Of a stretch of 54,953 bases of DNA, positions 9,858 through 54,953 are shown in pieces; position 1 is the stretch's first letter; every line of letters begins with the position of its first letter. Position numbers and translations under genes: made by a program. Source of the DNA: a virus (lineage: Duplodnaviria > Caudoviricetes); the IMG/VR virus record IMGVR_UViG_3300037785_000110, positions 1 through 54,953 of that record, one strand, 5' to 3'. A model generated the notes under the pieces. It saw nothing but the letters and a program-made list of their open reading frames with translations. It searched no databases and was not told the origin of the DNA.

Positions 9858-10480
9858 ATCTTCCCTCCGGCCCAGAGAACCTTGCCGACCACCTCGATGT
9901 CCCCGGCCGCATACTCGCGTGGCGGGTAGACGTCGCGGTTGTCCGAGATGACCATGATGAAGCCCGGCCGCGAGTGGCTCAGGCGCTTGACGTGCAGGAC
10001 GTCGAAGATCCGGATGACAAACAGGCCCTCATAGCCGTGGTTCCTCTTGGAGAGGTCCACCATCACGATGTCGTCTTCGCTGAGGGTCGGCACCATGCTG
10101 TCGCCCTTCACGGCGATGATCGCCAGGTGCCTGGGGTCGGTGCTGGTGATCGACCGCAGATAGTCGGGAGGGAAGGCCAGTGTGTGGGTCACGGTCTCGC
10201 CATCGACGACCGCGCCCGGTCCGGCGCTGGCCTCGATGTCGTAGACCGGCACAAGGCGGGCGTCGGATGGCGTCGCTTCAACTGCGATTGCGCGCGCCGG
10301 AAGAAGCCCTAAAGCGACCCTAATGCGCTCCGCGTTCTCGGTTGATGTTGTCGATCCATCCCGGCGGGAAAGATCGCGGACCACATCGTAGGTCACGTTT
10401 GCCCTGCGCGACAGCTCGGCCATCGAGAGCCCCTGTCGCTTCATCTCGGCCAGCATTTCGTCACGGAAGTTCATGGTCAT
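9854..10480 (-). CDS. cI: CI-like repressor (XRE HTH + S24 peptidase)
   Basis: GLSMAELSRRANV HTH, ASAGPG cleavage site, VKGDSMVP (Ser) and VKRL (Lys). Start at 10480 or 10474. Confidence 0.93.
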   Translation of the reverse strand: MTMNFRDEMLAEMKRQGLSMAELSRRANVTYDVVRDLSRRDGSTTSTENAERIRVALGLLPARAIAVEATPSDARLVPVYDIEASAGPGAVVDGETVTHTLAFPPDYLRSITSTDPRHLAIIAVKGDSMVPTLSEDDIVMVDLSKRNHGYEGLFVIRIFDVLHVKRLSHSRPGFIMVISDNRDVYPPREYAAGDIEVVGKVLWAGGKM

Positions 10481-40956: not shown

Positions 40957-41526
40957 ATGGAAATGATGCAGGGGCTGGGCGCAGGCGCGCCGCAGCCGCA
41001 AGAGGATCGCGCACAGGCCATGACGCCCAACGGCGCCAAGGAAGCCACGCCCGAGCAGCAAGCGCAGTTCGACAAGTTCGTGCAGATGTCCATGGTCATC
41101 CTGTACGACCCGCAGTTCGTGCAGAAGGCCCGCGAGATGATCCGGGGCCCGCAGGGGCCGGTCGAGGGTGTGGCCGATGTCGGCATTGCCATCGTGTCGC
41201 GGATCATCATGCAGGCCCAGAAGGAGCGCCAGCAGATCGACCCCGCCGTCATCCTTCATGGCGGGTGGCAGGTGATCAACTACATCGCCGAGGTCGCGCG
41301 CCTCAGTGCGGGCGTTGACCTGTCCGACGAGGACGTGGAGACTGCCTATTATCTCGCGGCCGACAAGCTGCGCGCTGTGCTCGACAAGGCGGGGCTGACG
41401 ACCGGTGGGCCGTCTCCCGAGCAGATGATCGAGCAAGCCCGCACCGATGTCGGTGACGACCAGCTGCGATCCGCCCTCGAGCGCACGCAGAAGGCCCGCC
41501 GCAACCCGATCGGAGGTGCTCAATGA
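40957..41526 (+). CDS. Hypothetical protein in the ejection module
   Basis: GAGGAG RBS. Confidence 0.75.
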   Translation: MEMMQGLGAGAPQPQEDRAQAMTPNGAKEATPEQQAQFDKFVQMSMVILYDPQFVQKAREMIRGPQGPVEGVADVGIAIVSRIIMQAQKERQQIDPAVILHGGWQVINYIAEVARLSAGVDLSDEDVETAYYLAADKLRAVLDKAGLTTGGPSPEQMIEQARTDVGDDQLRSALERTQKARRNPIGGAQ

Positions 41527-42251
41527 GCATGATCTTGGGGGGGCTGGCGGCCGGTCTCGGCGACGGTCTGGTGGAGCTGGCCAAGCAGCGGCGTGAAGAC
41601 TTCCTGAACGCCCAGAAGCGGCAGCAGGATCTCGAGGACGAAGATCGCAGGGCAGGCCGGTCCCGATCCGGCCGCACCGGCGGGACCGGGGGCCGGACGG
41701 GGGGCGACGACCGCTTCAAGCCGATCAGCCGCGGGCTCACCGGCGACATTCGCCAGTGGGGCGCCGACAACGACCTCGACGAGGCGACGATCCAGCGCTT
41801 CATCACCGAGGTCGAGCGTGTCGTCGGCACCGAGGGCATGACCGAAAACCAGGCGTGGAACTACGTCCTGACGCATGCAGGCCGCGGGGACCTCGAAGTG
41901 CGGACCCCCGCCCGGATGCCCTGGGGCGAAGACACCGTGGAGACCAAGCCGGGAGAGGGGCCCTACGACGGGACCTTCAACTATCCCGACAGTGCGCCCG
42001 CCGCCGCCCCGCGCGTGCCCGAGGGCCTGGGCGCCGGGGCATCTCCGGAGGCCCAGACGGACGTTCCCGGTCTTGGCACCCCGCGTCAGGCCGCACCGCA
42101 GGTCACGCGACCGCAGATCGACGGCCCGCCCGCGATGCCCGGGGCAGGGCGTAGCGGCCCGCCCGGCGCGCCGCCGGTCGGCACCATCATGGACGGCTAC
42201 CGCTTCAAGGGTGGCGATCCCGCAGACGAGAAGAACTGGGAGCCGGTGTAG
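41523..42251 (+). CDS. Putative ejection protein
   Basis: LGGLAAGLGDG N-terminus, C-terminal GTIMDGYRFKGGDPADEKNW. Confidence 0.7.
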   Translation: MSMILGGLAAGLGDGLVELAKQRREDFLNAQKRQQDLEDEDRRAGRSRSGRTGGTGGRTGGDDRFKPISRGLTGDIRQWGADNDLDEATIQRFITEVERVVGTEGMTENQAWNYVLTHAGRGDLEVRTPARMPWGEDTVETKPGEGPYDGTFNYPDSAPAAAPRVPEGLGAGASPEAQTDVPGLGTPRQAAPQVTRPQIDGPPAMPGAGRSGPPGAPPVGTIMDGYRFKGGDPADEKNWEPV

Positions 42252-45200
42252 ATGGCAAAGCCTTGGGAGCGGTTTCAGGGAACGAAGAAGCCGTGGGAGC
42301 AGTTCCAGAGCGACGCGCGGTCGGCACAGCCCGCCCCGCTTGCGCCGCCGCCGGAAGCCGGGCGGCTGCCCGGTCTTGGTGCGCCGGACCCCGAACCGGC
42401 CCCGGCCGCGCCCGAGGCGCCGCGCCGGTCCTCTGCCATCCTGCCGGGCGACGGGCGCGCGATTGCAGATGCCGCCCGCCCGGAGACGCGCGGAGAACGG
42501 CAGTACCGTGAGCTGACGAACCCGCCTCGCCCGGTCCCGGTCGAGCCGCAAGCGCCGGAAGAGCGCCGCCCCGGTGTCGGGTCCTCGACCCGTCGGGACT
42601 CCCTGCAGGCATCCCGTGACCGCGCCGCCGAGGCAGATGCCGGTCGCATCCCCCAGCCGATGTCCGATCTCGGGAAGCGGGTTTGGGAAATGGTCGTAGA
42701 AGGTGCGGCCAGCAACCTTGAGGGCGGCGTGTCGCGTGAAGGCAACCCGGCGCCATCCTTCCCGGAGTTCCGGTCCGGTGCCGAGGATCGCCTTGCGCAG
42801 CGGCGCGATCAGTTCTCCTTCGCCACGCGCCTCCTGATGTCCGGCACCGGCCCCGACGGGAATCCGCTGACCGATGCCGAGCGCGCCGACCTGCAGTCCG
42901 CGCAGGCCTGGGCGCGCGAGGAGATCGCCCGCATCGAGACGGAAGTGGGGGCTCTGACGCCGAACCCGCCCGCGACCTGGGCCGACAGCCGCAGCTTTGA
43001 GGCAGGGAATGACCTGCGGGCATGGGGTGAGAAGCTGGTGGGTGCGCCCGATCCGCAGTTCGATGACCGCTTTGCGTCCTCGCTGGCCAGCGGCGCCGGG
43101 AGCATGGCGTACTTCATCGGCGTCGGCATCCTGACCGGCGGTGTCGGTACCGCCTACAGCGGTGCCACGATGAACCAGTCGCAGGTCTACCGGGACGCCC
43201 TGGCCTTCGGCGCCGACGAGGACACCGCGCGCCAGGCCGCGCGCTGGGGTGCGGTGATCGGATCTTCCGAGGTCATCCCGATCATGCGCGCGCTTGAGCC
43301 GCTCGAGCGCTACGCCCCGGGGATCAAGAACCGGGTGGCGGCCGCGATCATCAAGAAGATCGGCGGCAACGCGACCGAGGAGGCCATTCAGGAGGGCACG
43401 TCGCAGGTCCTGAACAACCTGGTCGCCAAGGGCTACTACGACCCCGAGCGCGGGATCACCGAGGGTGTGGCCGAGTCCGCCCTGATCGGCGCGATCCTTG
43501 GCGGTGGTGTCGGTGCCATCGGCGCGGCGCGGCCGGGCGGCCTGACAGAAGATGCGGCACCCGGTGCCGATCCCGACCCGCAGCGGCTGAACAGCCCCCG
43601 CCTGACCGAAAGCGACCGTGCCAGCCCGATCCCCAACGACGTGATCGACGACGGGAAGGCAACGATCGAGGCCGTTCTGAACGGCGCACCGCTGCCGCCC
43701 GTGGCCACCCCCGCGCAGCCCGCGCCGCCGGTCGGCACCGACCAGGTCGCGCAACCCCCCGCACCCGTGCCGCCGTCCGCACCCGAGGCACCGGCTGGAC
43801 TCGGTGCGCCGGCCGCGCCTGATGCGCCGCCTGTGGCCCCGGCGGCATCGGTCGAAGGCCGCCGCCTCGGTGAGCCGATGCCGGTCATCGACGGCGATGA
43901 AGTGGTGCCCGGGCAGTATGTCGCTCAGGACCTCGACACCGGCGAGTTCGTCGACGTGTCCGACCAGGTGCAGCAGTCGCAGCAACCGCCCACGCCTCAG
44001 CCCGATGGCAAGACCCAACCCGAGGAGACCGATGCCGCACCCGCCCCGCCGCCCGCCGCACCCCGCCCGGTTCCCGATGCTGGTGACCAGACGCCCGTGG
44101 GGCTTGGTCCGGTGGATCGGCCGCAGGCAGGCGCGGATGCTGCGGCGTCGAGCGTAGAGGTCCCGGCGGCCGCAGAGCCGCGGCGCGTCCCGGATCAGGC
44201 TCAGGCCCCCGCGCGCCCGGCCCAGTCCCGCCCCGTCCGCCAGCCGCCCGACCGGGCCGCTTTCCCGGACACGGCCGAGGGCAACGCCCGCTTTGCCGAG
44301 GCAGACGCGCGCTGGGCCTACGGCAGCTTGACTCGCCCGGTCATCACGACGCTGCGTGACAACGGCATCCGGATCGACCCGAACGGGAAGGCTGCCATCG
44401 ACCTCGAGGCCATGGGCGTCACCCCCAGGACGGCCCCCGGCCTGTTCAAGCGTGGCGGCCTCAAGGACCTCGACAACATCGTCGCCAGCGAGTTCGAGGC
44501 CCTCCGGGAGATCGTGAAGACCGACGACGGCACGGGGTACTTCGACCTCGAGGACCTCAAGTCGGCCATCTCGGAAGAGGTCAGCAAGAGCCCGCGCTTG
44601 CCGGATGCGGTGCGACAGGCCGTGAACCTGCGCGAGGAAGCGGATCGCCGGCGCTCGGTCCGCGGGCTTGTCGACCAGTGGTCCGACGAGAACGAGATCA
44701 GTGCGCTGACAGAGGCCGAGAAGGAGGATATGGTCGAAATCCTCCTTGCGGAGCCCGATTATGAAATCGAGGATGCCGCCGAGCGCGTGTTCATCCGCAG
44801 CGAACGGGACAGTGAAGCCGATGTACGAGCATCTGACCAAGGAAGGGCAGGCGGCCGCCAAGCGGTTGAGGACGAGATCCCGTTTGGGGAAGTTGAGCCC
44901 CGAGGACCAGAAGGAAGCCGACCGGCTCCTGACACTGGCCGAGCAGATCAACCGGGCCAAGGCGAAGCGCAAAGCGAAAGGACCGACGCAGGCGAGCAGC
45001 TCCTGACGCCTGGCGTTGCCCCGATCACGGAAGCCGATCGCCAGCAGGCCGAGGTCACCCGCCGGTCCGATGCGCCGATGCGCGGGCGCAACGAGGGCCC
45101 GGCGTCCGGGCGTGACGACCTCTTCGGGAACCCGGAGGACCGCCGCGACCTGTTCGACGCGCCGCAGGCAGAGACCGAAACCGCTCGGCAGGTCGACGAC

Positions 45201-48200
45201 CTCGGTAACCCGGTCCCGAATGTCTCGACGCGGCAGGTCGGCACGACGCCGCAGGAGGCGCGTGATCAAGCCCGCGCTCGCCGTGAGGCGCAGTCCGGCC
45301 CCAAGGCGTCGCCCGCGGCCCGGCGCGCGCTCGACACGCTGAGCAAGGAAGAGCGCGCCCGGCTCGACGACATCAACAAGCGCCTGGCGGACAAGCTGCG
45401 GAACCAGACCAACAGCGGTCTGGACCCCGAACTGGTGTCGCTGGCAGTCGAGAGCGCCACGCTCTACGTCAAGGCCGGGGTGCGCCGCTTCCGCGAGTAC
45501 ATCACCGCCCTGGCCGATGCCACGGGCCTGCCCATTCAGACGCTTGGGAGATATGCCCGCATCGCGTACAATGACGTCCGCGACGAGATGGAGGCCAATG
45601 GCGAGGCCGTCGCCGACATGGACGACAGCCGCGCCGTGATCCAGGAACTCGCCCGGCTGAACCGCGAGGAGCGCGACAATGCACCAGGCACCGGCGGCGA
45701 TCTGGAACAGGATCGCGGAGACGCAGGACCTCAAGACGGACTGGGCGCAGCAGATGTTCCCGCTGCCGCCGGACGAGATGTCGAAGGCGCTGGACCGGGA
45801 GGAGGCGCGGATCGCCAAGGCGGTGGGCGGCGACGCACTGGTGGCGGCGGCGTATCTGCGGGTGATGCCGCTGGTCTGGGAAGCGGACGCGATCGAGGGA
45901 CTGGCGCGGATCGACGGGCCGAACCCGGCGCTTCCGCTGATCAGGACCGCGCAGGAAGCCGTGATCGTCGCCAGCAACGACTACCCGATGACGAAGGCAC
46001 AGCAGCAGACACTGCACGGGCTGCTTCGGACGCACCCGGACAAGGAGACCGGGCGCGGCAGCAAGCAGAAGCAGACCGCCTGACCGTCAAGCCGGGCGAC
46101 GAGGCCAACGTTCGCGCCACGCTGCCCCTGCTTCTTCCCGAGCAACAGGACGACGTGCTCAAGGTCGAGCGGCGCTTCGCCAAGCCGGACGGCTTTGGCA
46201 TGCTGCTGACCAACAGCACCGGGACCGGGAAGACGTACTCCGCCGGCGGGGTCATCAAGCGCTTCGCTCAGCAGGGCAAGACCAACGTCCTGATCCTCGC
46301 GCCGTCGCAGGGCATCCTCGACGCCTGGGTCGGCATGGGCAAGGATCTCGGGCTCGACATCACCAAGCTGGCCGACACCGGCACCGCAGGTGATGGGATC
46401 GTGGCAACGACCTACGCCAACGCCGCGGCCAACGATGCCCTCGCCAAGCGCGAGTGGGACCTGATCGTGCCGGACGAGGCGCACAACCTGTCCTCGAACC
46501 AGGCCGGTGAGCAGACCGGCGCGCTGAAAGCGCTCCGGGCGGTGTCGAACCATCCGGACGGGCGGTACACCAAGGCCAAAATGCTGCTGGCCGACGAGTG
46601 GGCGAAGGCCGAGGCCATGCCGCCCGGCAAGCCACAGGATGCGGTAAAGCAGGCACTGTGGACCAAGACCCGCGACCTGGCCGACAGCCTCAAGGCCCGG
46701 GGCCGGTCCCGCGTCCTGTTCCTGTCTGCGACGCCCTTCGCCTACGACAAGAACACCGACTATGCCGAGGGCTACCTCTTCCAGTACGGGGAGGATGGCG
46801 TCACGGATTCCGGGTCGCGCCAGTCCGGGCGCAACCTCTTCATGGTGCAGAACTTCGGCTACCGCATCCGCTACCACAAGCTGACCCAGCCCGAGGCGGC
46901 GGTGGATCGCGGCGTGTTCGAGCGCGAGTTTCACGAACGCCTCAAGCGTGAAGGGTCTCTGTCGGGCCGGTCGCTGTCGGTCGAGGCCGACTATGACCGC
47001 CGGTTCTCGGCCGTGGACAGCACCATCGGCAATGACATCGACCGGGCACTGGAATACCTGCGCAACAAGCAGAGCGAGAAGGGCGCGGGCGAGGGCTGGC
47101 GCCAGGTCAACAAGCTGGTGACGCGGCACTTCGGCTATCTCGAGCGCATGCAGCTCCTCGAGGCGATCAAGGCCGAGAAGGCGATCCCGGACATTCGCAA
47201 GCACCTCGACATGGGCCGCAAGGTCGTCGTCTTCCACGACTTCAATGTGGGCGGTGGTCGGTCCCCGTTCTCTCTGCCGATCGGAGACGGGGAGCTGGGC
47301 TACGGCGAGTTCACGACGTTCCTCGCTGAAAACCCCTATGTGACCAAGCTGGATTTCTCGGGCCTGGCCGCGCCGAAGGAACAGATCAAGGCGGCGTTCG
47401 GGACGCGGGCGAGGGAGTACAATGGCACGGTGCCGAACCGCGAGCGCGCGGCGGCCAAGGAGGCCTTCAACCGTGATGGCTCCGGTGTCGACGTGCTGAT
47501 CGTGCAGTCCGCCGCAGGCGAGGCGGGCATCTCCCTGCACGACACCAGCGGCAAGCACCAGCGCGCCCTGATCAACCTCGGGATGCCGACGCGGCCGGTC
47601 ACGACCTTGCAGCAGGAAGGCCGCATCCGGCGGGTGGGGTCCGTCTCGGACGCCATCTTCCGCTACTACACCATCGGCACGACCTGGGAGCGTGAGGCCT
47701 TCGCCCGCAAGATCGCCGAGAAGAGCGGCACGGTCGAAAACCTGGCCCTGGGCAACGAAGCCCGGGCAATCCGCGAGTCCTTCATCGAAGCCTACACCGA
47801 GGCCGACCGGCATCCGCCGGGCATGGAGGGCGAGGGCAAGGGCGGCAAGGACCGGGACCGCAGCGTTGCCCTCACGTCGCCCTACGAGCAGGCCAAGACG
47901 CACTACTTCGCCCGGCAGAAGAACACCCGCAACCGGCAGTCCCGGCAGGGCATCGACTTCTATGCGACCCCCGAGCCGCTGGGCTTCAAGATGGTCGGAT
48001 GGGCCGGCGCGCGCGAGTACGAGAAGGTCCTCGAGCCGTCGGCGGGCGATGGAGCGATCGCGCGCTACTTCCCCGAGAACACCGATCGGACCATCATCGA
48101 GCCTTCGGCAGACCTCGCATCGCAGGCCCAGCTGCGCACGGCCGGCGCGCGGTCCGTCACCGGCACCTTCGAGGGCTACCACATCAACAACAAGCACGAC

Positions 48201-51200
48201 GTGATCGTGATGAACCCGCCGTTCGGGAACGGCGGGAAGACGGCCTATGAGCATGTCGCCAAGGCGATGAAGCACCTCCGCCCGGGTGGGCGGATCGTGG
48301 CCCTGGTGCCCCGCGGTCCGGCGGCCGACAAGAACATGGCCAAGCTGCTCGATCCCGAAATGGTGAAGGTGGACGAATGGCACCTGACCGCGTCGGTAGA
48401 GCTTCCGCCGGTGGCGTTCGAGAAGGCCGGGACCAGCGTGCGCACCTACGTCATGGTTCTCGACCGCACCATGGAGCCGGTCGACGCGCCCACGCGCCGG
48501 ATCAACATGACCGGGGCCGAGAGCATTGCCGAGTTCTTCGAGCGCCTGGAAGGGATCGACGTCCCGGCCCGGCCTGCGGCCCTGGTGGAGCCCGGGGCCA
48601 TCGCCGAGATGTCGAACGCGGCCGACGAGGCCGCCCTGACCATCCAGATCCCGGAGGTGGCGGCGGCGGCCGACGGCTTCGACACCTTCGACTTCGCCCA
48701 CAGCCAGACCGGGGAGCGCAAGTACGGCGCCAACGCCAAGGAGCGCGTCACCCGCGAGCAGTACGACGCGATGAAGGAGGTGGCTCGCCAGCACGGCGGC
48801 TACTGGTCGCGCTACCAGAACGCCGCTCAGGGGGCCAAGCGCGGCTTCCTGTTCCCGTCGGCGGACGACCGGGACGCCTTTGTGGACGCCATGACGCGCC
48901 CGACGGCGGTCAAGGAGCAGCGCCGCCTGACGATGCAGGACGACGACAATGCGACCGAGGGCGTCTTCTACAGCCCGCTCCTGCGGGCGGTGCAGGGGGC
49001 GAAGCAGACCAAGGCCCCGGCGGGCGACTGGAAGGCCATCCTGTCGAAGATGCCGGGCGTCAAGCAGGTGGAGATCGAGTGGATCGGGGTCTACGACTGG
49101 CTCGACAGCCAGGAGGGCGCGCAGGTCCCGCGCGCGGCGCTCGAACAGTTCATCCGAGATGGGCAGATCGACCTGGTCGAGGAGGTGCTGGGAGACCGCA
49201 TGTCCTATCTGTCCGACGCATTTGACTCCGCCCGGGAAGACGAGATGTTCGAGGGGTGGACGGATGCAGAGATCGAGGAACAAATCCTCGCGGATGCCGA
49301 GGCCGAAGGCAGTTACGAACCGCCTCGCTTCGAGGAATACACCGAGCGCGGCGGCGAGAACTACCGCGAGGTCCTGATCCGGGTGCCGAACCTGCACGAG
49401 ACGGGGAAGAACCTCCCCGATCCGACATATGACCGCGCAGCGCAGGAGCGCGACCGCAAGCGCATGGAAGAAATCTATGCCGAAAACGGCGTCTCCACAT
49501 CTGACATGCAGGCAGTTCTGCGGCTGAACCGTGAGAACGACGAGCTTCGCCAGATCAATGATCGACTCGTGCAGCGCGACATGAACGATCGTGGCAAAAG
49601 CCCCTTCGTCCAGTCCGCCCACTTCGTGCAGGAGAACATCGTCGTTCACGCCCGGCTGAAAGATCGCTCCGGCCCGAACGGTGAGCGCATCCTGTTCGTG
49701 GAGGAGATCCAGTCCGATCTGGCGTCGAAATGGCGCGAGAACACCGAGAGCCCAGAGGTGACGGCCCGGCGGCGGGAGTTGGAGGCTGAAGCGTCGACGT
49801 TGCAGCGCGAGAACGAGCGCACGCTGGCTCGGGTGCAGCGGCGAGCCGAGCGGACCGGCAAATGGGATGCGGATTGGTCGATCGTGGCCGCCGCGCAGGC
49901 CATCGAAGAAGCTATCGGAATTGTGCGTGGCGACGAGAGCCCAAGGCGCGCCAGCGACCCCATCCGCAGAAGCGGCATTGTCAATGAAATGACCGGGCCG
50001 GAATGGGCTGATTTGCGCGAGGAAGTACAGGCGCAGTTTGACCGAGACAAAGAGCTTCGAGATGCAAGGCTCGCCCTCGGCACCGAGCGCAGCATGGACC
50101 CCAGCACACCTGACACCCCGTTCAAGGAGGAACACACCTACGCGCTGATGGTGAAGCGGCTTCTGCGCATGGCGGCGGAGCAGGGCTATGACCGGCTCGC
50201 CTGGACGCCGGGCTACATGCAGGCCGAGCGGTGGAACAACGCCGCGCAGAGCGTGGTGGAGGAGGTGGAGTGGTATTCGCCTGACCAGGTGGCGCTGGCT
50301 CAATATCGCTATGTCGACCTCACCATGTCCGACGGCGGCCGCACAATCAGCACGTCCGTCACGCCGCAGGGCGTGATCGAAGGCGCGGCGGGGAACGATA
50401 TGCTGGAAGGAAAGGCGCTGTCCGCGCTGATCGGCCCCAGCCTCGCCCGACAGATCATGTCCGAGCCTTCCGGCTCCATCACCGGCCAGAAGATCACCTT
50501 CCCGGACTCGGGCTATGCCATCGCCTACGATCAGCAGATCAAGCGCTCGGTCGACCGGATTGCCAAGGGCACCGGGGCGCGGGTGGAGCAGGCGCGGGAT
50601 ATGCCGGATTTCTCTCGCACTGTTGACGAGGATATGCTGGCGCCAGTTGTGGCAAACCTTACGCCAGAGCAAGCGCTGCAGGTCGCTGTTGATGGCGTAG
50701 AGGAATCGGCTCAGACCGTCTCTTTGTGGAAGGCGAAGATCGCAAAAGATGGACCACGCGCCCTCCTGTCCATCCGCCCGCGCAGGCTTGCCGAGCGCCT
50801 TGAGCGAATGGGAATCGCAATCCCCGGCAACCCCGTCTGGTCCATCACGATCACGCCCGAACTGCGTGAGAAGGCACTGGCCCCGCAGCCGATCCTGCAG
50901 AAGCCTGCCTTCGGCGCGCAGAACGCCACGATCATGGACGAGGCCACGGTGCGCGAGCTTCTGCCGGGTTTCCGTGAGCGCCTCGAGCGCGTCGGGCTTG
51001 GCCGGGTGCGCCTGGGCATCGACCTGACCGGCCAGCGCCAGGGGGCCATGCTGGTGAACCGCATGGGGGCCATCGACATCTTGATCGGGGCCAGCCTCAA
51101 TCCGAAGGCGACACTCTATCACGAGGTGATCCACGCGCTTCGGGTCGGCAACCTGTTCTCCGATGCGGAGTGGTCGCGCCTGTCCAAGCGTGCCGAGGAA

Positions 51201-54200
51201 ACCTGGATTGCCAAGCACCAGATCGAGGAGCGCTACCCGGACCTGACCCGCGAGGAGCAGATCGAAGAGGCGATCGCCGAGGAGTTCGGCGTCTGGGCCG
51301 CGGGCCGGGACGACAACCCGGGCGGCATCCGGCTGACCTTCGACAAGATCAAGCGGTTTCTCAAGGCCATCGCGGAAGCCCTGACGTCGCGCGGGTTTTT
51401 CACTGCCGATGACGTGTTCGGGAAGGTTCTGTCCGGCGAGGTCGGGCGCCGTCACGCCGGCAACACCGGCTCCCGCCGCCGCATGTTCCCGATCGGCCTG
51501 GAAGGCATGCCCGACGAGGCGGTGGCCGCGCAGCGCGATCAGACGCTCGACAGCCCCCAGAGCCCGCAGTTCAAGCGGTGGTTCGGCGACAGCAAAGTGG
51601 TCGGCTCCGACGGCGCGCCGCTGGTGGTTTACCATGGGACCAACGCGGATTTCGAGGCCTTCGACCCAAAGAAAGTCGGCAGCACCTTTAACGACGACAA
51701 GAAAGGATTCTTCTTCACGAACAGCACTGGCGAAGACATGGCCAGTGGCTACGCCACGATGGAAGGTGCGCGCGACGGAGGAAACATTATTGCTGCGTAC
51801 GTAGCGCTGCAGAATCCATACACCACCAGAGATTACCTCTTCGGCATCGGCTACAGTGACGCAGAACTAGACGCCATGACACCTGTCGAGATGTCTCGTG
51901 AAGCCCTAGACGGGCGCGGCGTCGTCGGCTGGTGGGACTACATGAAGAGAAGCTTGATGCCAGACATTGAGCGAGGTGGCTTTGATGGCGTTCTGTTAGA
52001 AGATTTTGACATGAACGTCCGGGGCGAACCCGAGAAGCTTGTGGTCGCCTTCCGGCCTGAGCAGGTCAAGTCGATCTTCAACCAGGGCACTTTCAACCCC
52101 GACACCGCGATCATGCGCGAGCAGCGCCCGGCGCGCGCGGTGCGTCGTCTCTCCGCCGCCGGCCGCCAGAAGGTCGCGCAGTCCACCAACACCTCGCACA
52201 TTCCGGATCGGCGCGTCTTCGACGAGCTCGCCCGGCGCAATGTCTCTGTGCTGGACCGGATCGGCGGGGCGCGAGGCGCGATCATGGACCGGATCGACCG
52301 GACGCGGATCGTGCTGCAGGACCGGATGCTTCCACTGCTCCGCGCCGAAGAGGGCATCACGGCAACGACCGGCGACAAGATCGACCGGGCGGACTCGGCT
52401 TACTTCGCCGAGGAGCGCTATTCCGGGCGCGTCGGCGCGCGGCTGGATGCCATCGACGAGCAGTTCACGAAGCCGATCATCGGCCTGATTGCCGATGCCA
52501 GCAACAGCAAGGCAGGGGCCATCACGCTCACCGACAAGGATGGCCGCACCCGGACCGGGGCTGATGCCGCTGGGATCTGGCTGGCGGCCCGGCACGCTAA
52601 GGAGCGCAACGCGCGGATCGCGGCCATCAACCCGAACATGCCCGACGGCGGCGCCGGGATGACCAATGCCGAAGCCGATGCCATCCTCTCCGAGGCAGCG
52701 TCGAGCCCGCACGCTGATCGGCTGCGGAAGATCGGTGTCCTGACAGACCGGCTCGGTCGCCAGATGATCGACTTGCGCGAGCAGGCCGGGCTGCTGACCG
52801 GCGATGAAGCCGACACCTGGCGGCGCATGTACCAGCACTATGTCCCGCTGCGCGGCTTCTCCGAGACGGAGATGTATGACCTGGTGGTCAACGAGTATTC
52901 CGGGATCGGCCGGCGCTACACCGTGCGCGGCCCGGAAACCCAGCGCGCCCTGGGGCGGACGTCGGAGGCCTTCAACCCGTTGGCGACCATTCTGACCATG
53001 GCTCAGGAGGTGTCCATCCGGGCAGAGAAGAACCTGGTCGGGCAGGCGGTCGTGCGACTGGCGCAGCGCTACCCGAACCCGGCCATGTGGGAGGTCTCGA
53101 AGCCGGAAACCCAGCGCTTCTACAACCGCAAGTCCGGCTACGTCGAGAGCCGCGTGGTCGGGCCGACGGCGCGCCCGATGGGCCCGAACGAGATGGCCGT
53201 GAAGATCGACGGTGTCGAACACCGGCTGACCCTCAAGGACCCGCGTCTTGCCTCGGCACTGGGCCAACTGGGCAGCGAGCAGATGGGCGTCTTCATGCGC
53301 GTCATGTCCGGCTTCTCGCGGTACTTCTCCGCCATCAACACCATGCTCTCGCCGCCGTTCATCATCGTGAACGCCTTCCGCGACATGGTGACCGCACAGG
53401 TCAACATGGGCGAGCAGGTGCCCAAGGGCATGCAGGCTCGCGTCCGAAAGGCGGCCCTCGGCAACTGGGGCCGGGCGTTCCTTGGCGCGTACAAGGGTAT
53501 GGGTGGCAAGGCCAACACCCAGTGGGCACAGCACTTCAAGGAGTTCGAGGCCAGCGGCGCCAAGGTGTCGTTCTGGAAGATCGAGACGCCGGAGCTGATG
53601 GGGGCCGACCTCGAGCGGCGCATCGGCCTTGCGTCCGGGACCAAGCTGGGAAGCAAGCTGCGTCGGCTGGTACGACCGTCGACGCGCGACAACCCGGCGC
53701 TGGCATGGATCGAGCGCGTGAACCTCTCGGTCGACAACGCGGTGCGCCTGGCGTCCTTCGTCGAGGCCCGAGCCGCAGGCATGTCGATCGAGGACGCCGC
53801 GTCGCTCTCGAAGAACCTGACGGTCAACTTCAACCGCCGCGGCGAGATTGGCGCGCAGATGAACGCGCTCTTCCCGTTCGCCAATGCCGCGATCCAAGGC
53901 TCCCAGGTCCTGATCAAGGCCATGGGGTCGCGCCAGGTGAAGGCGACCGTGGTCGGCATGGTCCTCTTCGGCATCGCCAATGACCTGCTGAACGCGATGC
54001 TCTCGGCGCGCGACGACGACGACGAGCTCGAATACGACCAGATCCCCAACTACATCTTGGCCCGGAACCTGGTGCTGGCGACCCCGTGGGACGAGACCTT
54101 CGCCACCGTGCCGCTGCCCTACGGCTACAACGCCTTCTTCTATCTCGGGAACCGGATCGGGAAGGTGATGCGCGGCGTGGTGCCGGCAGATCGCGCGGTC

Positions 54201-54953
54201 GGGCAGGTCCTTTCCACTTTCGTGGGGGCGTTCTCCCCGCTCAGTGGCGAGACCGCGCAGCAGTTCTTCATGCCCACCGCGCTAGACCATGTGAACGAGC
54301 TGGCCCAGAACCGCGACTGGCTCGGGCGCCCGATCCGGCCCGAGAACCCCTATGGCGACTTCGGGCCGCAGGCCTACAAGGAGTACAGCGCCACCGGGCC
54401 GTCGCGTGCCCTGGCGCGCACCCTGAACTGGGCGACGGGTGGCTCGGAGCTCGAAAGCGGCGTCATCGACATCTCGCCGGAGTATTTCGACCACACCGCC
54501 AAGTTCCTGACCGGCGGGGCCGGGCGGTTCGCCATGCAGACCTACGGGCTTGCCGAGATGGCGGCCGAGGGGCGGCTGCAGGACGTGGAGGCGTACCAGA
54601 TCCCGCTTGTCCGGGTAATGCGGACCGAGTCCGCGGACTTCCTTGACACCAACCGATATTTCCGGTTCCGCTCGGTCGTAGAAGAAAGCCGGGCCATGGT
54701 CCGCCGTGCGGAAGAGCGGGGTATCCCCCCACTGGAAAGCCATGTCCGCGCCGCCGGGCTCTACAGCGCCCTGCGCGCTGCAGAGCGTGAGCGCCGCGGT
54801 CTCTCGGACAAGATCGACAACGTCTACGCCGACGACAGCCTGTCCGGACGGGAGCGGGCCGATCAGCTGCGCCCGCTCACCGAGGAGCGCGGCACGGTCT
54901 ACAAGCGGTTCAACCGGGCGTTCATCGAGGCCATGGGGCCGCAGGCGGAGTGA
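42252..54953 (+). CDS. Giant polyvalent virion protein (DarB-like: SF2 helicase, N6-adenine MTase, metallopeptidase, ART-like, LPD38-like)
   Basis: 4233 aa. STGTGKT (~46215), DEAH (46473), SATP, QQEGRIRR (~47610); LEPSAGDG (~48030), NPPF (~48213); EEIQSD (~49700); HEVIH (51120); FKRWFGDSKVV..PLVVYHGT..GFFFT..VAF.PEQVKS (~51560-52100); VNFNRRG/PFANAAIQG/PLPYG (~53820-54130). Confidence 0.9.
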   Translation: MAKPWERFQGTKKPWEQFQSDARSAQPAPLAPPPEAGRLPGLGAPDPEPAPAAPEAPRRSSAILPGDGRAIADAARPETRGERQYRELTNPPRPVPVEPQAPEERRPGVGSSTRRDSLQASRDRAAEADAGRIPQPMSDLGKRVWEMVVEGAASNLEGGVSREGNPAPSFPEFRSGAEDRLAQRRDQFSFATRLLMSGTGPDGNPLTDAERADLQSAQAWAREEIARIETEVGALTPNPPATWADSRSFEAGNDLRAWGEKLVGAPDPQFDDRFASSLASGAGSMAYFIGVGILTGGVGTAYSGATMNQSQVYRDALAFGADEDTARQAARWGAVIGSSEVIPIMRALEPLERYAPGIKNRVAAAIIKKIGGNATEEAIQEGTSQVLNNLVAKGYYDPERGITEGVAESALIGAILGGGVGAIGAARPGGLTEDAAPGADPDPQRLNSPRLTESDRASPIPNDVIDDGKATIEAVLNGAPLPPVATPAQPAPPVGTDQVAQPPAPVPPSAPEAPAGLGAPAAPDAPPVAPAASVEGRRLGEPMPVIDGDEVVPGQYVAQDLDTGEFVDVSDQVQQSQQPPTPQPDGKTQPEETDAAPAPPPAAPRPVPDAGDQTPVGLGPVDRPQAGADAAASSVEVPAAAEPRRVPDQAQAPARPAQSRPVRQPPDRAAFPDTAEGNARFAEADARWAYGSLTRPVITTLRDNGIRIDPNGKAAIDLEAMGVTPRTAPGLFKRGGLKDLDNIVASEFEALREIVKTDDGTGYFDLEDLKSAISEEVSKSPRLPDAVRQAVNLREEADRRRSVRGLVDQWSDENEISALTEAEKEDMVEILLAEPDYEIEDAAERVFIRSERDSEADVRASDQGRAGGRQAVEDEIPFGEVEPRGPEGSRPAPDTGRADQPGQGEAQSERTDAGEQLLTPGVAPITEADRQQAEVTRRSDAPMRGRNEGPASGRDDLFGNPEDRRDLFDAPQAETETARQVDDLGNPVPNVSTRQVGTTPQEARDQARARREAQSGPKASPAARRALDTLSKEERARLDDINKRLADKLRNQTNSGLDPELVSLAVESATLYVKAGVRRFREYITALADATGLPIQTLGRYARIAYNDVRDEMEANGEAVADMDDSRAVIQELARLNREERDNAPGTGGDLEQDRGDAGPQDGLGAADVPAAAGRDVEGAGPGGGADRQGGGRRRTGGGGVSAGDAAGLGSGRDRGTGADRRAEPGASADQDRAGSRDRRQQRLPDDEGTAADTARAASDAPGQGDRARQQAEADRLTVKPGDEANVRATLPLLLPEQQDDVLKVERRFAKPDGFGMLLTNSTGTGKTYSAGGVIKRFAQQGKTNVLILAPSQGILDAWVGMGKDLGLDITKLADTGTAGDGIVATTYANAAANDALAKREWDLIVPDEAHNLSSNQAGEQTGALKALRAVSNHPDGRYTKAKMLLADEWAKAEAMPPGKPQDAVKQALWTKTRDLADSLKARGRSRVLFLSATPFAYDKNTDYAEGYLFQYGEDGVTDSGSRQSGRNLFMVQNFGYRIRYHKLTQPEAAVDRGVFEREFHERLKREGSLSGRSLSVEADYDRRFSAVDSTIGNDIDRALEYLRNKQSEKGAGEGWRQVNKLVTRHFGYLERMQLLEAIKAEKAIPDIRKHLDMGRKVVVFHDFNVGGGRSPFSLPIGDGELGYGEFTTFLAENPYVTKLDFSGLAAPKEQIKAAFGTRAREYNGTVPNRERAAAKEAFNRDGSGVDVLIVQSAAGEAGISLHDTSGKHQRALINLGMPTRPVTTLQQEGRIRRVGSVSDAIFRYYTIGTTWEREAFARKIAEKSGTVENLALGNEARAIRESFIEAYTEADRHPPGMEGEGKGGKDRDRSVALTSPYEQAKTHYFARQKNTRNRQSRQGIDFYATPEPLGFKMVGWAGAREYEKVLEPSAGDGAIARYFPENTDRTIIEPSADLASQAQLRTAGARSVTGTFEGYHINNKHDVIVMNPPFGNGGKTAYEHVAKAMKHLRPGGRIVALVPRGPAADKNMAKLLDPEMVKVDEWHLTASVELPPVAFEKAGTSVRTYVMVLDRTMEPVDAPTRRINMTGAESIAEFFERLEGIDVPARPAALVEPGAIAEMSNAADEAALTIQIPEVAAAADGFDTFDFAHSQTGERKYGANAKERVTREQYDAMKEVARQHGGYWSRYQNAAQGAKRGFLFPSADDRDAFVDAMTRPTAVKEQRRLTMQDDDNATEGVFYSPLLRAVQGAKQTKAPAGDWKAILSKMPGVKQVEIEWIGVYDWLDSQEGAQVPRAALEQFIRDGQIDLVEEVLGDRMSYLSDAFDSAREDEMFEGWTDAEIEEQILADAEAEGSYEPPRFEEYTERGGENYREVLIRVPNLHETGKNLPDPTYDRAAQERDRKRMEEIYAENGVSTSDMQAVLRLNRENDELRQINDRLVQRDMNDRGKSPFVQSAHFVQENIVVHARLKDRSGPNGERILFVEEIQSDLASKWRENTESPEVTARRRELEAEASTLQRENERTLARVQRRAERTGKWDADWSIVAAAQAIEEAIGIVRGDESPRRASDPIRRSGIVNEMTGPEWADLREEVQAQFDRDKELRDARLALGTERSMDPSTPDTPFKEEHTYALMVKRLLRMAAEQGYDRLAWTPGYMQAERWNNAAQSVVEEVEWYSPDQVALAQYRYVDLTMSDGGRTISTSVTPQGVIEGAAGNDMLEGKALSALIGPSLARQIMSEPSGSITGQKITFPDSGYAIAYDQQIKRSVDRIAKGTGARVEQARDMPDFSRTVDEDMLAPVVANLTPEQALQVAVDGVEESAQTVSLWKAKIAKDGPRALLSIRPRRLAERLERMGIAIPGNPVWSITITPELREKALAPQPILQKPAFGAQNATIMDEATVRELLPGFRERLERVGLGRVRLGIDLTGQRQGAMLVNRMGAIDILIGASLNPKATLYHEVIHALRVGNLFSDAEWSRLSKRAEETWIAKHQIEERYPDLTREEQIEEAIAEEFGVWAAGRDDNPGGIRLTFDKIKRFLKAIAEALTSRGFFTADDVFGKVLSGEVGRRHAGNTGSRRRMFPIGLEGMPDEAVAAQRDQTLDSPQSPQFKRWFGDSKVVGSDGAPLVVYHGTNADFEAFDPKKVGSTFNDDKKGFFFTNSTGEDMASGYATMEGARDGGNIIAAYVALQNPYTTRDYLFGIGYSDAELDAMTPVEMSREALDGRGVVGWWDYMKRSLMPDIERGGFDGVLLEDFDMNVRGEPEKLVVAFRPEQVKSIFNQGTFNPDTAIMREQRPARAVRRLSAAGRQKVAQSTNTSHIPDRRVFDELARRNVSVLDRIGGARGAIMDRIDRTRIVLQDRMLPLLRAEEGITATTGDKIDRADSAYFAEERYSGRVGARLDAIDEQFTKPIIGLIADASNSKAGAITLTDKDGRTRTGADAAGIWLAARHAKERNARIAAINPNMPDGGAGMTNAEADAILSEAASSPHADRLRKIGVLTDRLGRQMIDLREQAGLLTGDEADTWRRMYQHYVPLRGFSETEMYDLVVNEYSGIGRRYTVRGPETQRALGRTSEAFNPLATILTMAQEVSIRAEKNLVGQAVVRLAQRYPNPAMWEVSKPETQRFYNRKSGYVESRVVGPTARPMGPNEMAVKIDGVEHRLTLKDPRLASALGQLGSEQMGVFMRVMSGFSRYFSAINTMLSPPFIIVNAFRDMVTAQVNMGEQVPKGMQARVRKAALGNWGRAFLGAYKGMGGKANTQWAQHFKEFEASGAKVSFWKIETPELMGADLERRIGLASGTKLGSKLRRLVRPSTRDNPALAWIERVNLSVDNAVRLASFVEARAAGMSIEDAASLSKNLTVNFNRRGEIGAQMNALFPFANAAIQGSQVLIKAMGSRQVKATVVGMVLFGIANDLLNAMLSARDDDDELEYDQIPNYILARNLVLATPWDETFATVPLPYGYNAFFYLGNRIGKVMRGVVPADRAVGQVLSTFVGAFSPLSGETAQQFFMPTALDHVNELAQNRDWLGRPIRPENPYGDFGPQAYKEYSATGPSRALARTLNWATGGSELESGVIDISPEYFDHTAKFLTGGAGRFAMQTYGLAEMAAEGRLQDVEAYQIPLVRVMRTESADFLDTNRYFRFRSVVEESRAMVRRAEERGIPPLESHVRAAGLYSALRAAERERRGLSDKIDNVYADDSLSGRERADQLRPLTEERGTVYKRFNRAFIEAMGPQAE
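44032..44157 (+). CDS. Candidate nested small ORF (+1 frame in the giant gene), 41 aa
   Basis: GAGGAG at 44022-44027, nearly all codons G/C-ending, Arg/Pro-rich. Confidence 0.3.
   Translation: MPHPPRRPPHPARFPMLVTRRPWGLVRWIGRRQARMLRRRA
44821..45006 (+). CDS. Nested small basic helical protein (+1 frame in the giant gene), 61 aa
   Basis: MYEHLTKEGQAAAKRLRTRSRLGKLSPEDQKEADRLLTLAEQINRAKAK... The GC3 bias moves to this frame. RBS is weak. Confidence 0.55.
   Translation: MYEHLTKEGQAAAKRLRTRSRLGKLSPEDQKEADRLLTLAEQINRAKAKRKAKGPTQASSS
45679..46083 (+). CDS. Nested 134-aa protein (+1 frame in the giant gene)
   Basis: GAGGAG 7 nt upstream, about 10 of 134 codons A/T-ending by hand count, globular composition. 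The host frame here is a G/R/A/D linker. Confidence 0.75.
   Translation: MHQAPAAIWNRIAETQDLKTDWAQQMFPLPPDEMSKALDREEARIAKAVGGDALVAAAYLRVMPLVWEADAIEGLARIDGPNPALPLIRTAQEAVIVASNDYPMTKAQQQTLHGLLRTHPDKETGRGSKQKQTA

What the first reader, a model, noticed from the sequence alone, without database searches (positions are those of the whole stretch)
45666..46083. Likely real gene nested inside the giant polyvalent protein, just ahead of its helicase domain
Seen: a strong SD (GAGGAG, 7-nt spacer) and ATG open a 134-aa ORF in the +1 frame. Its product looks folded (MHQAPAAIWNRIAETQDLKTDWAQQMFPL...AAAYLRVMPLVWEADAI...). Only about 10 of 134 codons end in A/T. Over the same span the giant frame loses its GC3 bias and reads as low-complexity G/R/A/D sequence, yet stays open. 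The nested ORF stops shortly before the helicase region. Inference: both frames are under selection. The nested product may be a cognate inhibitor or chaperone that keeps the injected enzyme domains quiet during virion assembly. Standard annotation would miss it.
Basis: partly seen in the sequence, partly recalled or inferred. Interest (0 to 1): 0.85.

Follow-up and report, generated by a model that had tools for sequence, protein, structure and literature searches.

The report
Hidden gene inside giant phage gene
A small, well-folded protein is encoded in a second reading frame inside the floppy linker of this prophage's 4,233-residue injected-enzyme gene, and related phages keep both frames intact, so one stretch of DNA codes for two proteins that annotation misses.

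Summary
ORF 45679-46083 (134 aa, here "X") lies in the +1 frame of the complete giant gene 42252-54953, behind GAGGAG plus a 7-nt spacer.

Over the overlap the codon-position GC pattern belongs to X (0.69/0.46/0.92). In the giant frame it is 0.92/0.69/0.46.

In this GC-rich window alone, two open frames are not significant (P 0.11 and 0.79). Comparison decides it:
- In 47 of 47 related loci (GC 37-69%; Alpha-, Beta- and Gammaproteobacteria hosts where named) X starts with ATG and sits in +1 of an open long frame.
- X is the better conserved frame.
- X avoids T at third positions, which keeps the giant frame free of stops (conservative joint P about 2.5e-20).
- X folds confidently (pLDDT 90). 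The giant-frame reading of the same DNA is predicted disordered.
- X also occurs as a non-nested domain elsewhere, so it is probably the older gene.

X matches nothing in Pfam, PHROGs or NCBIfam and has no clear fold neighbour. Its function is unknown; the inhibitor/chaperone idea is untested.

Earlier AI notes of this scan report analogous nested genes in other DarB-like genes on other DNA. No paper I reached mentions one.

The parts
42252..54953 (+). Giant polyvalent (DarB-like) gene, 4233 aa, complete. Pfam domains: ResIII/Helicase_C helicase, MTS methyltransferase, ART-PolyVal, LPD38.
45666..45671 (+). Shine-Dalgarno-like GAGGAG, 7 nt upstream of the X start codon.
   Evidence: The duplex energy with a recalled anti-SD motif is -8.1 kcal/mol, stronger than all but 3.9% of the other ATGs in the giant ORF. 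Across 36 distinct loci the mean is -7.2, against -2.9 for background ATGs.
45658..45660 (+). Last stop codon in the X frame upstream of the ATG, 18 nt before it.
45679..46083 (+). Nested gene X, 134 aa, in the +1 frame of the giant gene. Runs from ATG to TGA.
45694..46026 (+). Folded all-alpha core of X: helices spanning residues 6-116. Residues 121-134 are a low-confidence tail that relatives of 116-131 aa mostly lack.
   Evidence: pLDDT 90.3, pTM 0.83.
45681..45998 (+). Giant-frame reading of the overlap: a predicted disordered, hydrophobic-poor G/R/A/D linker (about giant residues 1144-1249).
   Evidence: model residues 65-171 are coil; pLDDT is under 50 at 80-166, while the flanks score 82-89.
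46122..46145 (+). First conserved helicase motif LPLLLPEQ in the giant frame, 38 nt after the X stop.
45544..45572 (+). Weak sigma-70-like promoter match (TTGGGA-17-TACAAT, 9 of 12) ending 106 nt upstream of the X ATG. Not a conserved feature.
   Evidence: Such sites occur in 6 of 40 loci, against a background of 0.032 per 235 nt.

Best explanation
X (45679-46083) is a genuine protein-coding gene nested in the +1 frame of the giant DarB-like polyvalent protein gene.

Shown by the sequences:
- The same ~400 nt are kept open and under selection in two frames across distant phages, prophages and phage-like plasmids.
- X has its own conserved ATG and SD-like site.
- X gives a confidently folded ~115-residue helical domain.
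- The giant frame reads the same DNA as a stop-free, hydrophilic, disordered tether just ahead of the helicase.

Inferred mechanism:
- Ribosomes that load at the internal SD/ATG on the giant gene's mRNA make free X.
- Ribosomes already in frame 0 read through and make the single giant polypeptide.
- X is probably the older coding sequence. The linker arose when an upstream gene and the helicase-methylase gene were joined by reading across X in another frame. This is easy in GC-rich DNA, where that frame is open by chance in about 10-30% of resamplings.

Inferred function, at roughly 0.3 on its own: X is a separately made partner or module of the helicase-methyltransferase part of the giant protein, for example an assembly, packaging or regulatory subunit. 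The confidence given applies to the real, dual-coded nested gene, not to this function.
For: 1. Conservation in the +1 frame.
- tblastn of X finds 8 phage records (6 phages). All matches start at query residue 1, and all lie under the annotated giant CDS.
- Arithmetic on the annotated CDS starts puts each match in frame +1.
- In 43 of 43 loci (the window, 6 GenBank phages, 36 IMG/VR contigs) X starts with ATG, is 116-134 aa long, and lies in +1 of an open frame of 2125-4233 codons. The third frame is open for only 9-96 codons and never spans X.
- Four more nested cases: a Halocynthiibacter prophage, a Comamonas plasmid and two Acinetobacter records at 37-39% GC.

2. X is the frame under purifying selection.
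- Mean pairwise nucleotide difference by X codon position is 0.448/0.383/0.498, so the giant frame's third position is the least variable.
- Amino-acid identity is 0.418 in the X frame and 0.286 in the giant frame.
- In a local tblastn, X hits 42 of 42 loci in frame +1. The frame-0 translation of the same span hits 12 of 42.

3. The giant frame is also constrained.
- Given X's protein, resampled synonymous codons leave frame 0 open in 0-29% of trials per locus. The figure is 0 of 2000 in the Vibrio phages and Acinetobacter, where 8-12 stops are expected.
- Taking one value for each of 9 clusters at 50% identity gives a Poisson P of about 2.5e-20.
- T at X third positions is 0.052 against 0.123 expected, and is lower in 39 of 40 loci. 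Frame-0 hydrophobicity is below the simulation in 40 of 40 loci.

4. X has its own start.
- ATG is present in 47 of 47 loci.
- SD duplex energy is -6 kcal/mol or stronger in 25 of 36 loci, against 11.6% of other ATGs.
- A stop in the X frame abuts the ATG in 11 of 43 loci and in L045.

5. Fold.
- AlphaFold2 on 30 sequences gives pLDDT 90.3 and pTM 0.83 for X.
- The giant-frame reading, with 31 sequences from the same kind of loci, scores below 50 across residues 80-166 while its flanks score 82-89.

6. The family is large and also exists un-nested.
- 465 clusters at 50% identity match at E<=1e-3, and 291 at E<=1e-10.
- A Bradyrhizobium island carries X as the N-terminal domain of a ~373-aa protein, with no giant ORF.
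- Longer X proteins are called on contigs of 12-96 kb.

7. Link to the helicase.
- The helicase query finds exactly the same 8 phage records as X.
- In plasmid records, 4 fetched homologues were examined. The 3 with an N-terminal extension carry X, and the Aquimarina one has neither X nor an extension.

8. Not an assembly artefact: contigs of 4 independent runs show no indels over 45300-46500.
Against: - There is no expression evidence of any kind: no RNA run holds the stretch (see Tried and rejected), and I had no Ribo-seq or proteomics.
- In the window alone the dual openness is not significant (P 0.108 and 0.786).
- The loci are related by descent, so counts such as 47 of 47 are not independent events. 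The joint P treats 9 clusters as independent, which is only roughly true.
- The SD-like site is weak in some loci (-2.5 kcal/mol in L026 and L033).
- In database proteins P0037, P0039, P0040 and P0049, the segment that precedes X in the giant frame is in frame with X. An A-X fusion product therefore exists in some genomes, which keeps a frameshift-type reading alive.
- Function is unsupported. X has no Pfam, PHROGs or NCBIfam family. Foldseek finds nothing at E<=0.001. The best structural Z is 4.3.
- The two natural variants seen inside X change its protein (A57T, E123G) and say nothing either way.
Confidence: 0.85

Rival explanations
1. X is not started on its own. It is added to the upstream part of the giant protein by a programmed +1 ribosomal frameshift. 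This would give a short A-X product ending at the X stop, beside the full-length giant protein.
For: In database proteins P0037, P0039, P0040 and P0049, the ~60-aa segment that lies in the giant frame right upstream of X is in the same frame as X. A purine-rich SD-like site just upstream of a shift site is known to stimulate the prfB +1 frameshift (recalled).
Against: - ATG is the first aligned codon in 47 of 47 loci, which a frameshift product would not need.
- A stop in the X frame directly abuts the ATG in 11 of 43 loci and in L045, and lies 3-6 nt before it in four more. That leaves no room for a shift site.
- The 20 nt upstream share no slippery motif.
- Every tblastn match starts at residue 1.
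Confidence: 0.05
2. The giant ORF is an annotation illusion at this point. The real genes are an upstream gene, X, and a helicase-methylase gene. Frame 0 across X is not translated into a functional linker.
For: - The frame-0 reading is poorly conserved and predicted disordered.
- In GC-rich members it could stay open by chance (P up to 0.29).
- In Acinetobacter the helicase-methylase is a separate, shorter gene.
Against: - Frame 0 has no stop anywhere between the upstream part and the helicase in 47 of 47 loci, including genomes of 37-46% GC where 8-12 stops are expected.
- T is depleted at X third positions in 39 of 40 loci.
- The upstream part has no stop of its own, so ribosomes must read on.
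- Even the short Acinetobacter genes start upstream of X and read through it.
Confidence: 0.07
3. This is a chance ORF in GC-rich DNA, or a pair of compensating assembly or sequencing frameshifts, with no biological meaning.
For: The window is 66.8% GC and carries antisense ORFs of 1485 and 1884 aa over the same gene. Given the giant-frame protein, the +1 frame stays open in 78.6% of resamplings.
Against: - The +1 frame is conserved at protein level down to 27% identity in AT-rich phages.
- 465 database clusters match the X profile.
- X folds with pLDDT 90.
- Three other +1 ORFs of the same gene hit 0 of 42 loci.
- Contigs of 4 other runs show no indels.
Confidence: 0.01

Closest known systems
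Rz1 embedded in Rz (two-component spanin genes of phage lambda and many others; the 'embedded class' is named in PMC9144972 and PMC6606913, passages read)
   Same: A complete small gene with its own start, wholly nested in the +1 frame of a larger phage gene on the same strand. Both products are made from one stretch of DNA.
   Different: - Rz1 is an outer-membrane lipoprotein with a signal peptide and lipobox. X has neither (it starts MHQAPAAIWN) and is a soluble-looking helical domain.
- The host gene here is a 4233-aa virion-type enzyme gene, not a lysis gene.
- The overlap here falls on a disordered linker.
- Here the nested gene looks like the older one.
Hepatitis B virus polymerase spacer overlapping the preS/S envelope gene; classic overprinted genes of phiX174 (recalled, not read here; overprinting reviews PMC8227390 and PMC6188560 seen as search listings only)
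   Same: A tolerant, disordered spacer of a large multi-domain enzyme shares its DNA with a structured protein read in another frame. Codon-position composition tells which frame is ancestral.
   Different: - A different virus world, with no sequence relation.
- Here the arrangement is spread over tailed phages, prophages and phage-like plasmids of several bacterial classes.
- The nested gene also exists as a free-standing domain.
P1 DarB and the large polyvalent proteins (Iyer et al. 2017, PMC5512222, passages searched; Bcep22-like DarB homologues, PMC9144972, passages)
   Same: The host gene has the helicase plus N6-methyltransferase core, with ART-PolyVal and LPD38 domains. DarB-like proteins of Bcep22-like phages are virion-associated by proteomics (PMC9144972, Table 6 passage). 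P1 DarB needs small accessory proteins for packaging (cited in that paper; otherwise recalled).
   Different: - None of these papers' searched passages mentions a gene nested inside the giant gene.
- X is unrelated by sequence to anything named there.
- No role in packaging is shown for X.
Nested +1 genes in other DarB-like or polyvalent genes noted earlier in this scan (AI notes e1-5356815, e1-6093044, e1-4729500, e1-1951285, e1-2771386, e1-5853707; unchecked)
   Same: The same layout: a small gene in frame +1 inside the unstructured linker of a giant methylase-helicase or polyvalent gene, conserved in many elements and unannotated.
   Different: - Some of those are TnpV-like. X is not: PF14198 matches 0 of 100 family members and nothing in the window.
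- A look-up by sequence found no look-alike of X in other windows, so these may be independent families.

Membership tests
Same-strand nested (overprinted) gene pair | Both reading frames are open over the whole overlap in homologues. | tested here: met
   True in 47 of 47 loci. The third frame never spans X.
Same-strand nested (overprinted) gene pair | Purifying selection acts on the nested frame. | tested here: met
   X codon position 2 is the least variable and position 3 the most (0.383 against 0.498). Identity is 0.418 in the X frame and 0.286 in the giant frame. X hits 42 of 42 loci and 465 database clusters.
Same-strand nested (overprinted) gene pair | Selection acts on the host frame over the overlap. 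| tested here: met
   Stop avoidance: P is 0-0.29 per locus, with a joint P of about 2.5e-20 over 9 clusters. T is depleted at X third positions in 39 of 40 loci.
Same-strand nested (overprinted) gene pair | The nested gene has its own translation start signal. | tested here: met
   ATG is present in 47 of 47 loci. The SD-like duplex is -6 kcal/mol or stronger in 25 of 36 loci, against 11.6% of background ATGs. This is sequence-level evidence only.
Same-strand nested (overprinted) gene pair | Both products are actually made. | not testable with these tools
   I had no RNA, Ribo-seq or proteomic data for this element or its relatives.
Large polyvalent / DarB-like proteins (host gene) | Several unrelated enzymatic domains in one polypeptide, including helicase, N6-MTase and LPD domains. 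| tested here: met
   Pfam hits: ResIII, Helicase_C, MTS (22.1 bits, just under its 23-bit cut-off), ART-PolyVal, LPD38.
Large polyvalent / DarB-like proteins (host gene) | Packaged in the virion and injected. | not testable with these tools
   Only by analogy with JC1 gp69 proteomics (PMC9144972 passage).
TnpV (PF14198) | A match to the family profile. | tested here: not met
   0 of 100 X family members match at E<=1. The window has no match at E<=10.
Programmed ribosomal frameshift product | A conserved shift site, and no need for a start codon in the new frame. | tested here: not met
   ATG is invariant. A stop abuts the ATG in 12 loci. The 20 nt upstream share no motif.
Rz1-type spanin | An N-terminal lipoprotein signal peptide with a lipobox Cys. 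| tested here: not met
   The X N-terminus MHQAPAAIWNRIAETQ has no hydrophobic signal and no Cys. The model is a soluble helical bundle.
PrmC_N (PF17827) helical substrate-binding domain | A match to the family profile or fold. | tested here: inconclusive
   5 of 100 members give weak hits, best E 0.0015. No HemK/PrmC chain appears among the listed structural matches.

The most novel reading that the evidence does not exclude
The linkers of giant polyvalent phage proteins are, at least here, the shadows of older small genes.
- Two genes were welded into one injected polypeptide by reading straight across an intervening gene (X) in another frame.
- The fusion cost nothing, because X went on being made from its own start.
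- The trick recurs. A second nested +1 gene, Y, sits in another linker of L017, L020 and L023. Y is fused in frame to X in free-standing proteins, which marks X and Y as working partners.

This would be a general route of gene fusion by overprinting. It would also mean a hidden layer of small proteins that act with injected anti-defence enzymes.
Probability: 0.4. Interest if true: 0.8.

Novelty: new variant of a known kind. Interest (0 to 1): 0.72.

Why it matters
Gene finders forbid long same-strand overlaps, so a protein family with hundreds of sequence clusters has stayed unannotated inside one of the largest genes of these phages. None of the 8 GenBank phage records lists it.

It is a clean natural case of long dual coding (about 120 codons), kept from 37% to 69% GC. 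That makes it useful for testing how two proteins share one sequence: a folded domain in one frame and a stop-free, hydrophilic spacer in the other.

It suggests how giant polyvalent proteins may grow, by fusing genes across a third gene.

In practice, any knock-out, truncation or domain mapping of the DarB-like gene near the helicase also hits X. Phenotypes assigned to the giant protein may therefore belong to the small one.

Tried and rejected
- **Family and fold searches for X gave nothing usable.**
  - Pfam, PHROGs and NCBIfam: 0 families.
  - PDB sequence profile: only marginal hits to ETV6 SAM fusions and TOM5.
  - ESM Atlas: no usable hit.
  - Foldseek against PDB and BFVD: nothing at E<=0.001.
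  - VIA-align wide: best Z 4.3, to YpgQ.
  - PADLOC was not run.
- **Co-fold.** X (residues 1-122, alignment A1) was folded with the helicase region of the giant protein (residues 1285-1860, alignment A4). Scores were 0.00, 0.61 and 0.00, so there is no verdict. This is neither for nor against binding.
- **Expression.** No RNA holder is listed for 44500-47500.
- **Population variants.** There are only 2 substitutions inside X in other runs' contigs, too few for a frame-specific test.
- **Internal promoter.** There is one weak match 106 nt upstream of the X ATG in the window. Such sites occur in only 6 of 40 loci, so it is not a conserved feature.
- **RNA structure around the start.** z = -0.5, which is nothing.
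- **Other +1 ORFs of the giant gene** (43681-44157, 44710-45006, 45007-45342). They hit 0 of 42 loci, and the second hits 0 phage records. The frame-0 readings of the same spans hit 0, 0 and 2 of 42, so those regions are simply divergent. The test cannot decide, and they are not supported.
- **tblastn of X against plasmids** found nothing. A profile search of fetched loci then did find X in 3 of the 4 plasmid-collection records examined.
- **Context of the long X proteins.**
  - The search for related loci with P0039 and with P0157 in viral contigs found no relative.
  - Alignment A2 was too diverse for the scan.
- **Literature.**
  - Five searches found no paper that describes a gene nested in a DarB-like or polyvalent gene.
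  - Passages of PMC5512222, PMC13299392, PMC9505181, PMC6606913 and PMC9144972 do not mention one either.
  - I read passages only, not whole texts, and supplements were closed. A proteomics supplement could hold X peptides unnoticed.
Full report
**1. The observation**

- The window is 66.8% GC.
- The giant ORF 42252..54953 is complete: 4233 aa, with its stop at the last bases.
- Pfam finds ResIII (residues 1296-1418), Helicase_C, MTS, ART-PolyVal and LPD38 in it. It is therefore a DarB-like large polyvalent protein.
- GAGGAG (45666-45671), a 7-nt spacer and ATG (45679) open a 134-codon ORF in frame +1. It ends at 46083.
- Over this span GC by codon position is 0.689/0.459/0.919 in the nested frame. 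That is almost the giant gene's own overall pattern of 0.696/0.486/0.844.
- The giant frame over the same span reads 0.919/0.689/0.459. A finer scan places the switch at about 45600-46080.
- The giant frame there is G/R/A/D-rich, with 6% hydrophobic residues against 28% downstream.
- The nested stop lies 38 nt before the helicase motif LPLLLPEQ.

**2. Is it more than chance?**

Not from the window alone.
- Resampling synonymous codons leaves the giant frame open in 10.8% of trials given X's protein.
- It leaves the +1 frame open in 78.6% of trials given the giant-frame protein.
- ORFs of 1485 and 1884 aa lie antisense to the same gene.

The case rests on relatives.

**3. Relatives**

- tblastn of X against 50,697 phage records finds 8 records from 6 phages: Ruegeria 45A6, Serratia Parlo, Klebsiella ZX1, Vibrio D274, Vibrio 1.232.O and Pseudomonas Skulduggery. 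Identity is 27-61%.
- Every match starts at query residue 1, and every match lies under the annotated giant CDS only.
- From the annotated CDS starts, each match is in frame +1.
- The protein database holds 30 unnamed clusters of 105-130 aa, all on contigs of 5.3 kb or less (alignment A1).
- A scan of IMG/VR with A1 gave 36 loci.
- In 43 of 43 loci X starts with ATG, is 116-134 aa long, and lies in frame +1 of an open frame of 2125-4233 codons that spans it. Many of these frames are cut by the locus end.
- The third frame is open for only 9-96 codons and never spans X.
- Four further nested cases came from other routes:
  - a Halocynthiibacter prophage (L045);
  - a Comamonas plasmid (L046);
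  - two Acinetobacter records (L047 and L048, GC 0.39 and 0.37). There the helicase-methylase is a separate gene of 1276-1336 aa that still starts upstream of X and reads through it.
- An Aquimarina helicase homologue has neither X nor the N-terminal extension.
- The helicase query finds exactly the same 8 phage records as X.

**4. Which frame is selected? Both, in different ways**

Across 36 distinct X sequences:
- Mean pairwise nucleotide difference is 0.448, 0.383 and 0.498 at X codon positions 1, 2 and 3. The giant frame's third position is therefore the least variable.
- A helicase control shows the normal 0.361/0.310/0.543 in the giant frame.
- Amino-acid identity is 0.418 in the X frame and 0.286 in the giant frame.
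- In a local tblastn, X hits 42 of 42 loci in frame +1. The frame-0 reading of the same span hits 12 of 42, and more weakly.
- Three other +1 ORFs of the window's giant gene hit 0 of 42.

The giant frame is kept open against expectation:
- Given X's protein, P(open) is 0-0.29 per locus. In the Vibrio phages it is 0 of 2000, with 12-13 stops expected. In Acinetobacter it is 0 of 2000, with about 8 expected.
- Taking the most lenient value for each of 9 clusters at 50% identity gives a Poisson P of about 2.5e-20. The clusters are not fully independent, so this is an order of magnitude only.
- The means is visible in the sequence. T at X third positions is 0.052 against 0.123 expected, and is lower in 39 of 40 loci.
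- The frame-0 reading is less hydrophobic than in resamplings in 40 of 40 loci.

**5. Start signal**

- ATG is present in 47 of 47 loci.
- The duplex energy of the 17 nt upstream with an anti-SD motif (recalled consensus) averages -7.2 kcal/mol, against -2.9 for all other ATGs in the same giant ORFs.
- It is -6 or stronger in 25 of 36 loci, against 11.6% of background ATGs. It is weak in L026 and L033.
- A stop in the X frame directly abuts the ATG in 11 of 43 loci and in L045.
- The 20 nt upstream share no slippery motif.

This argues for internal initiation and against a frameshift fusion.

**6. Fold**

- With 30 sequences, AlphaFold2 gives X a mean pLDDT of 90.3 and pTM of 0.83. Helices span residues 6-116, followed by a low-confidence tail.
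- The giant-frame reading of 45489-46241, with 31 sequences from the same kind of loci, folds at both ends (pLDDT 82-89). It is coil with pLDDT below 50 across residues 80-166, inside the overlap.
- Folded and unfolded parts of the two frames are thus nearly complementary.

**7. What X is**

- X has no Pfam, PHROGs or NCBIfam family and no clear structural neighbour.
- It is not TnpV.
- A profile search of 1.84 billion representatives finds 465 clusters at E<=1e-3. Most are about 120 aa and match from residue 1.
- 35 of the 150 listed are longer than 160 aa.
- The longer ones looked up sit on contigs of 12-96 kb and are named only 'hypothetical'.
- In a Bradyrhizobium island with an integrase, a PrimPol-DUF3631 gene, an SNF2 helicase and a deaminase, X is the N-terminal domain of a ~373-aa protein. 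There is no giant ORF there.
- Segments fused in frame to X elsewhere match pieces of the giant genes:
  - The upstream segment 'U' of P0037, P0039, P0040 and P0049 matches the giant frame right before X in L017, L020, L023, L046, L011, L012, L010 and L002.
  - The C-terminal part of P0042 matches the giant frame about 2 kb upstream of X in six loci.
  - The part after X in P0183, P0052 and P0040 matches a second short +1 ORF ('Y') about 4 kb downstream of X in L017, L020 and L023. That ORF again lies over a G/R/D-rich stretch of the giant frame.

X is thus one mobile module of the polyvalent-protein repertoire. In this lineage it is delivered as a separate polypeptide.

**8. How it most likely works**

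Shown: there are two selected frames, X has its own start signal, X is a folded domain, and the giant frame reads the overlap as a disordered spacer.

Inferred:
- X is translated by internal initiation on the giant gene's mRNA. Ribosomes in frame 0 read through.
- X is the older sequence, for three reasons. Its frame carries the genome's codon-position signature. It exists un-nested. The X-less helicase homologue also lacks the linker.
- The fusion of the upstream part to the helicase-methylase arose by reading across X. This is an event with odds of 10-30% per trial in GC-rich DNA, later held by selection in AT-rich hosts.

Speculative: X works with the helicase-methylase module as a subunit, assembly factor or regulator. 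The only support is strict co-occurrence and position.

**9. Against, and limits**

- There is no expression evidence.
- The loci are related by descent.
- Some SD-like sites are weak.
- In-frame U-X proteins exist.
- The two population variants inside X are both non-synonymous in X.
- Contigs of four other runs show no indels, so an assembly artefact is excluded.

**10. Known or new**

- Nested +1 genes with their own starts are a known kind in phages, for example Rz1 in Rz.
- Five literature searches and the passages read from five papers show no record of a gene nested in a DarB-like or polyvalent gene.
- Earlier AI notes of this scan report analogous, partly TnpV-like, nested genes in other giant methylase-helicase genes on other DNA. 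No look-alike of X itself was on record.
- I rate it a new variant of a known kind, real and of good interest. The function is still open.

Noticed in passing
L017:10153-10341, L020:~10110-10290, L023:~10070-10236: A second short +1-frame ORF ('Y', about 55 aa, motif PGPFDTLETWE) lies inside the giant gene about 4 kb downstream of X. It sits over another G/R/D-rich stretch of the giant frame. It matches the segment that follows X in frame in the free-standing proteins P0183, P0052 and P0040. It is absent from the window.
   Followed up: partly
window 44710-45006 (+1 frame): A second place where the GC3 signal moves to the +1 frame (44700-45000), with an open +1 stretch of 98 codons. It has no relative in 42 loci or in the phage collection. 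The giant-frame reading of the same span also has none, so the test cannot decide.
   Followed up: partly
proteins P0037, P0039, P0040, P0049; loci L017, L020, L023, L046 and others, just upstream of X: The ~60-aa helical segment 'U' (..KPYIRRF..) precedes X in the giant frame of the loci. In some database proteins it is in the same frame as X. In L031 and L019 a U-like segment lies after X instead.
   Followed up: partly
L047:5185-9195 and L048:5041-8871 (Acinetobacter): Here the helicase-methyltransferase is a stand-alone gene of 1276-1336 aa, not part of a giant gene. X is still nested in frame +1 of its N-terminal extension, at 37-39% GC.
   Followed up: yes
L044:198-15458 (Bradyrhizobium sp. 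LjRoot220): The un-nested X protein lies in an integrated island with a tyrosine integrase, a PrimPol-DUF3631 gene, an SNF2-type helicase and a 527-aa deaminase-domain protein.
   Followed up: partly
window 41520-45977 and 45981-51635, minus strand: Antisense ORFs of 1485 and 1884 aa lie over the giant gene. They are the usual product of high GC3 and a reminder that ORF length means little here.
   Followed up: no
X family alignment A2: 5 of 100 members give weak Pfam hits to PrmC_N, the helical substrate-binding domain of HemK-type methyltransferases (best E 0.0015). The giant protein's methyltransferase matches the MTS family, to which HemK-type enzymes are related (recalled). No structural support was found.
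   Followed up: no
protein P0065 (566 aa): It carries two copies of the X domain in one chain and a C-terminal DUF6794.
   Followed up: no
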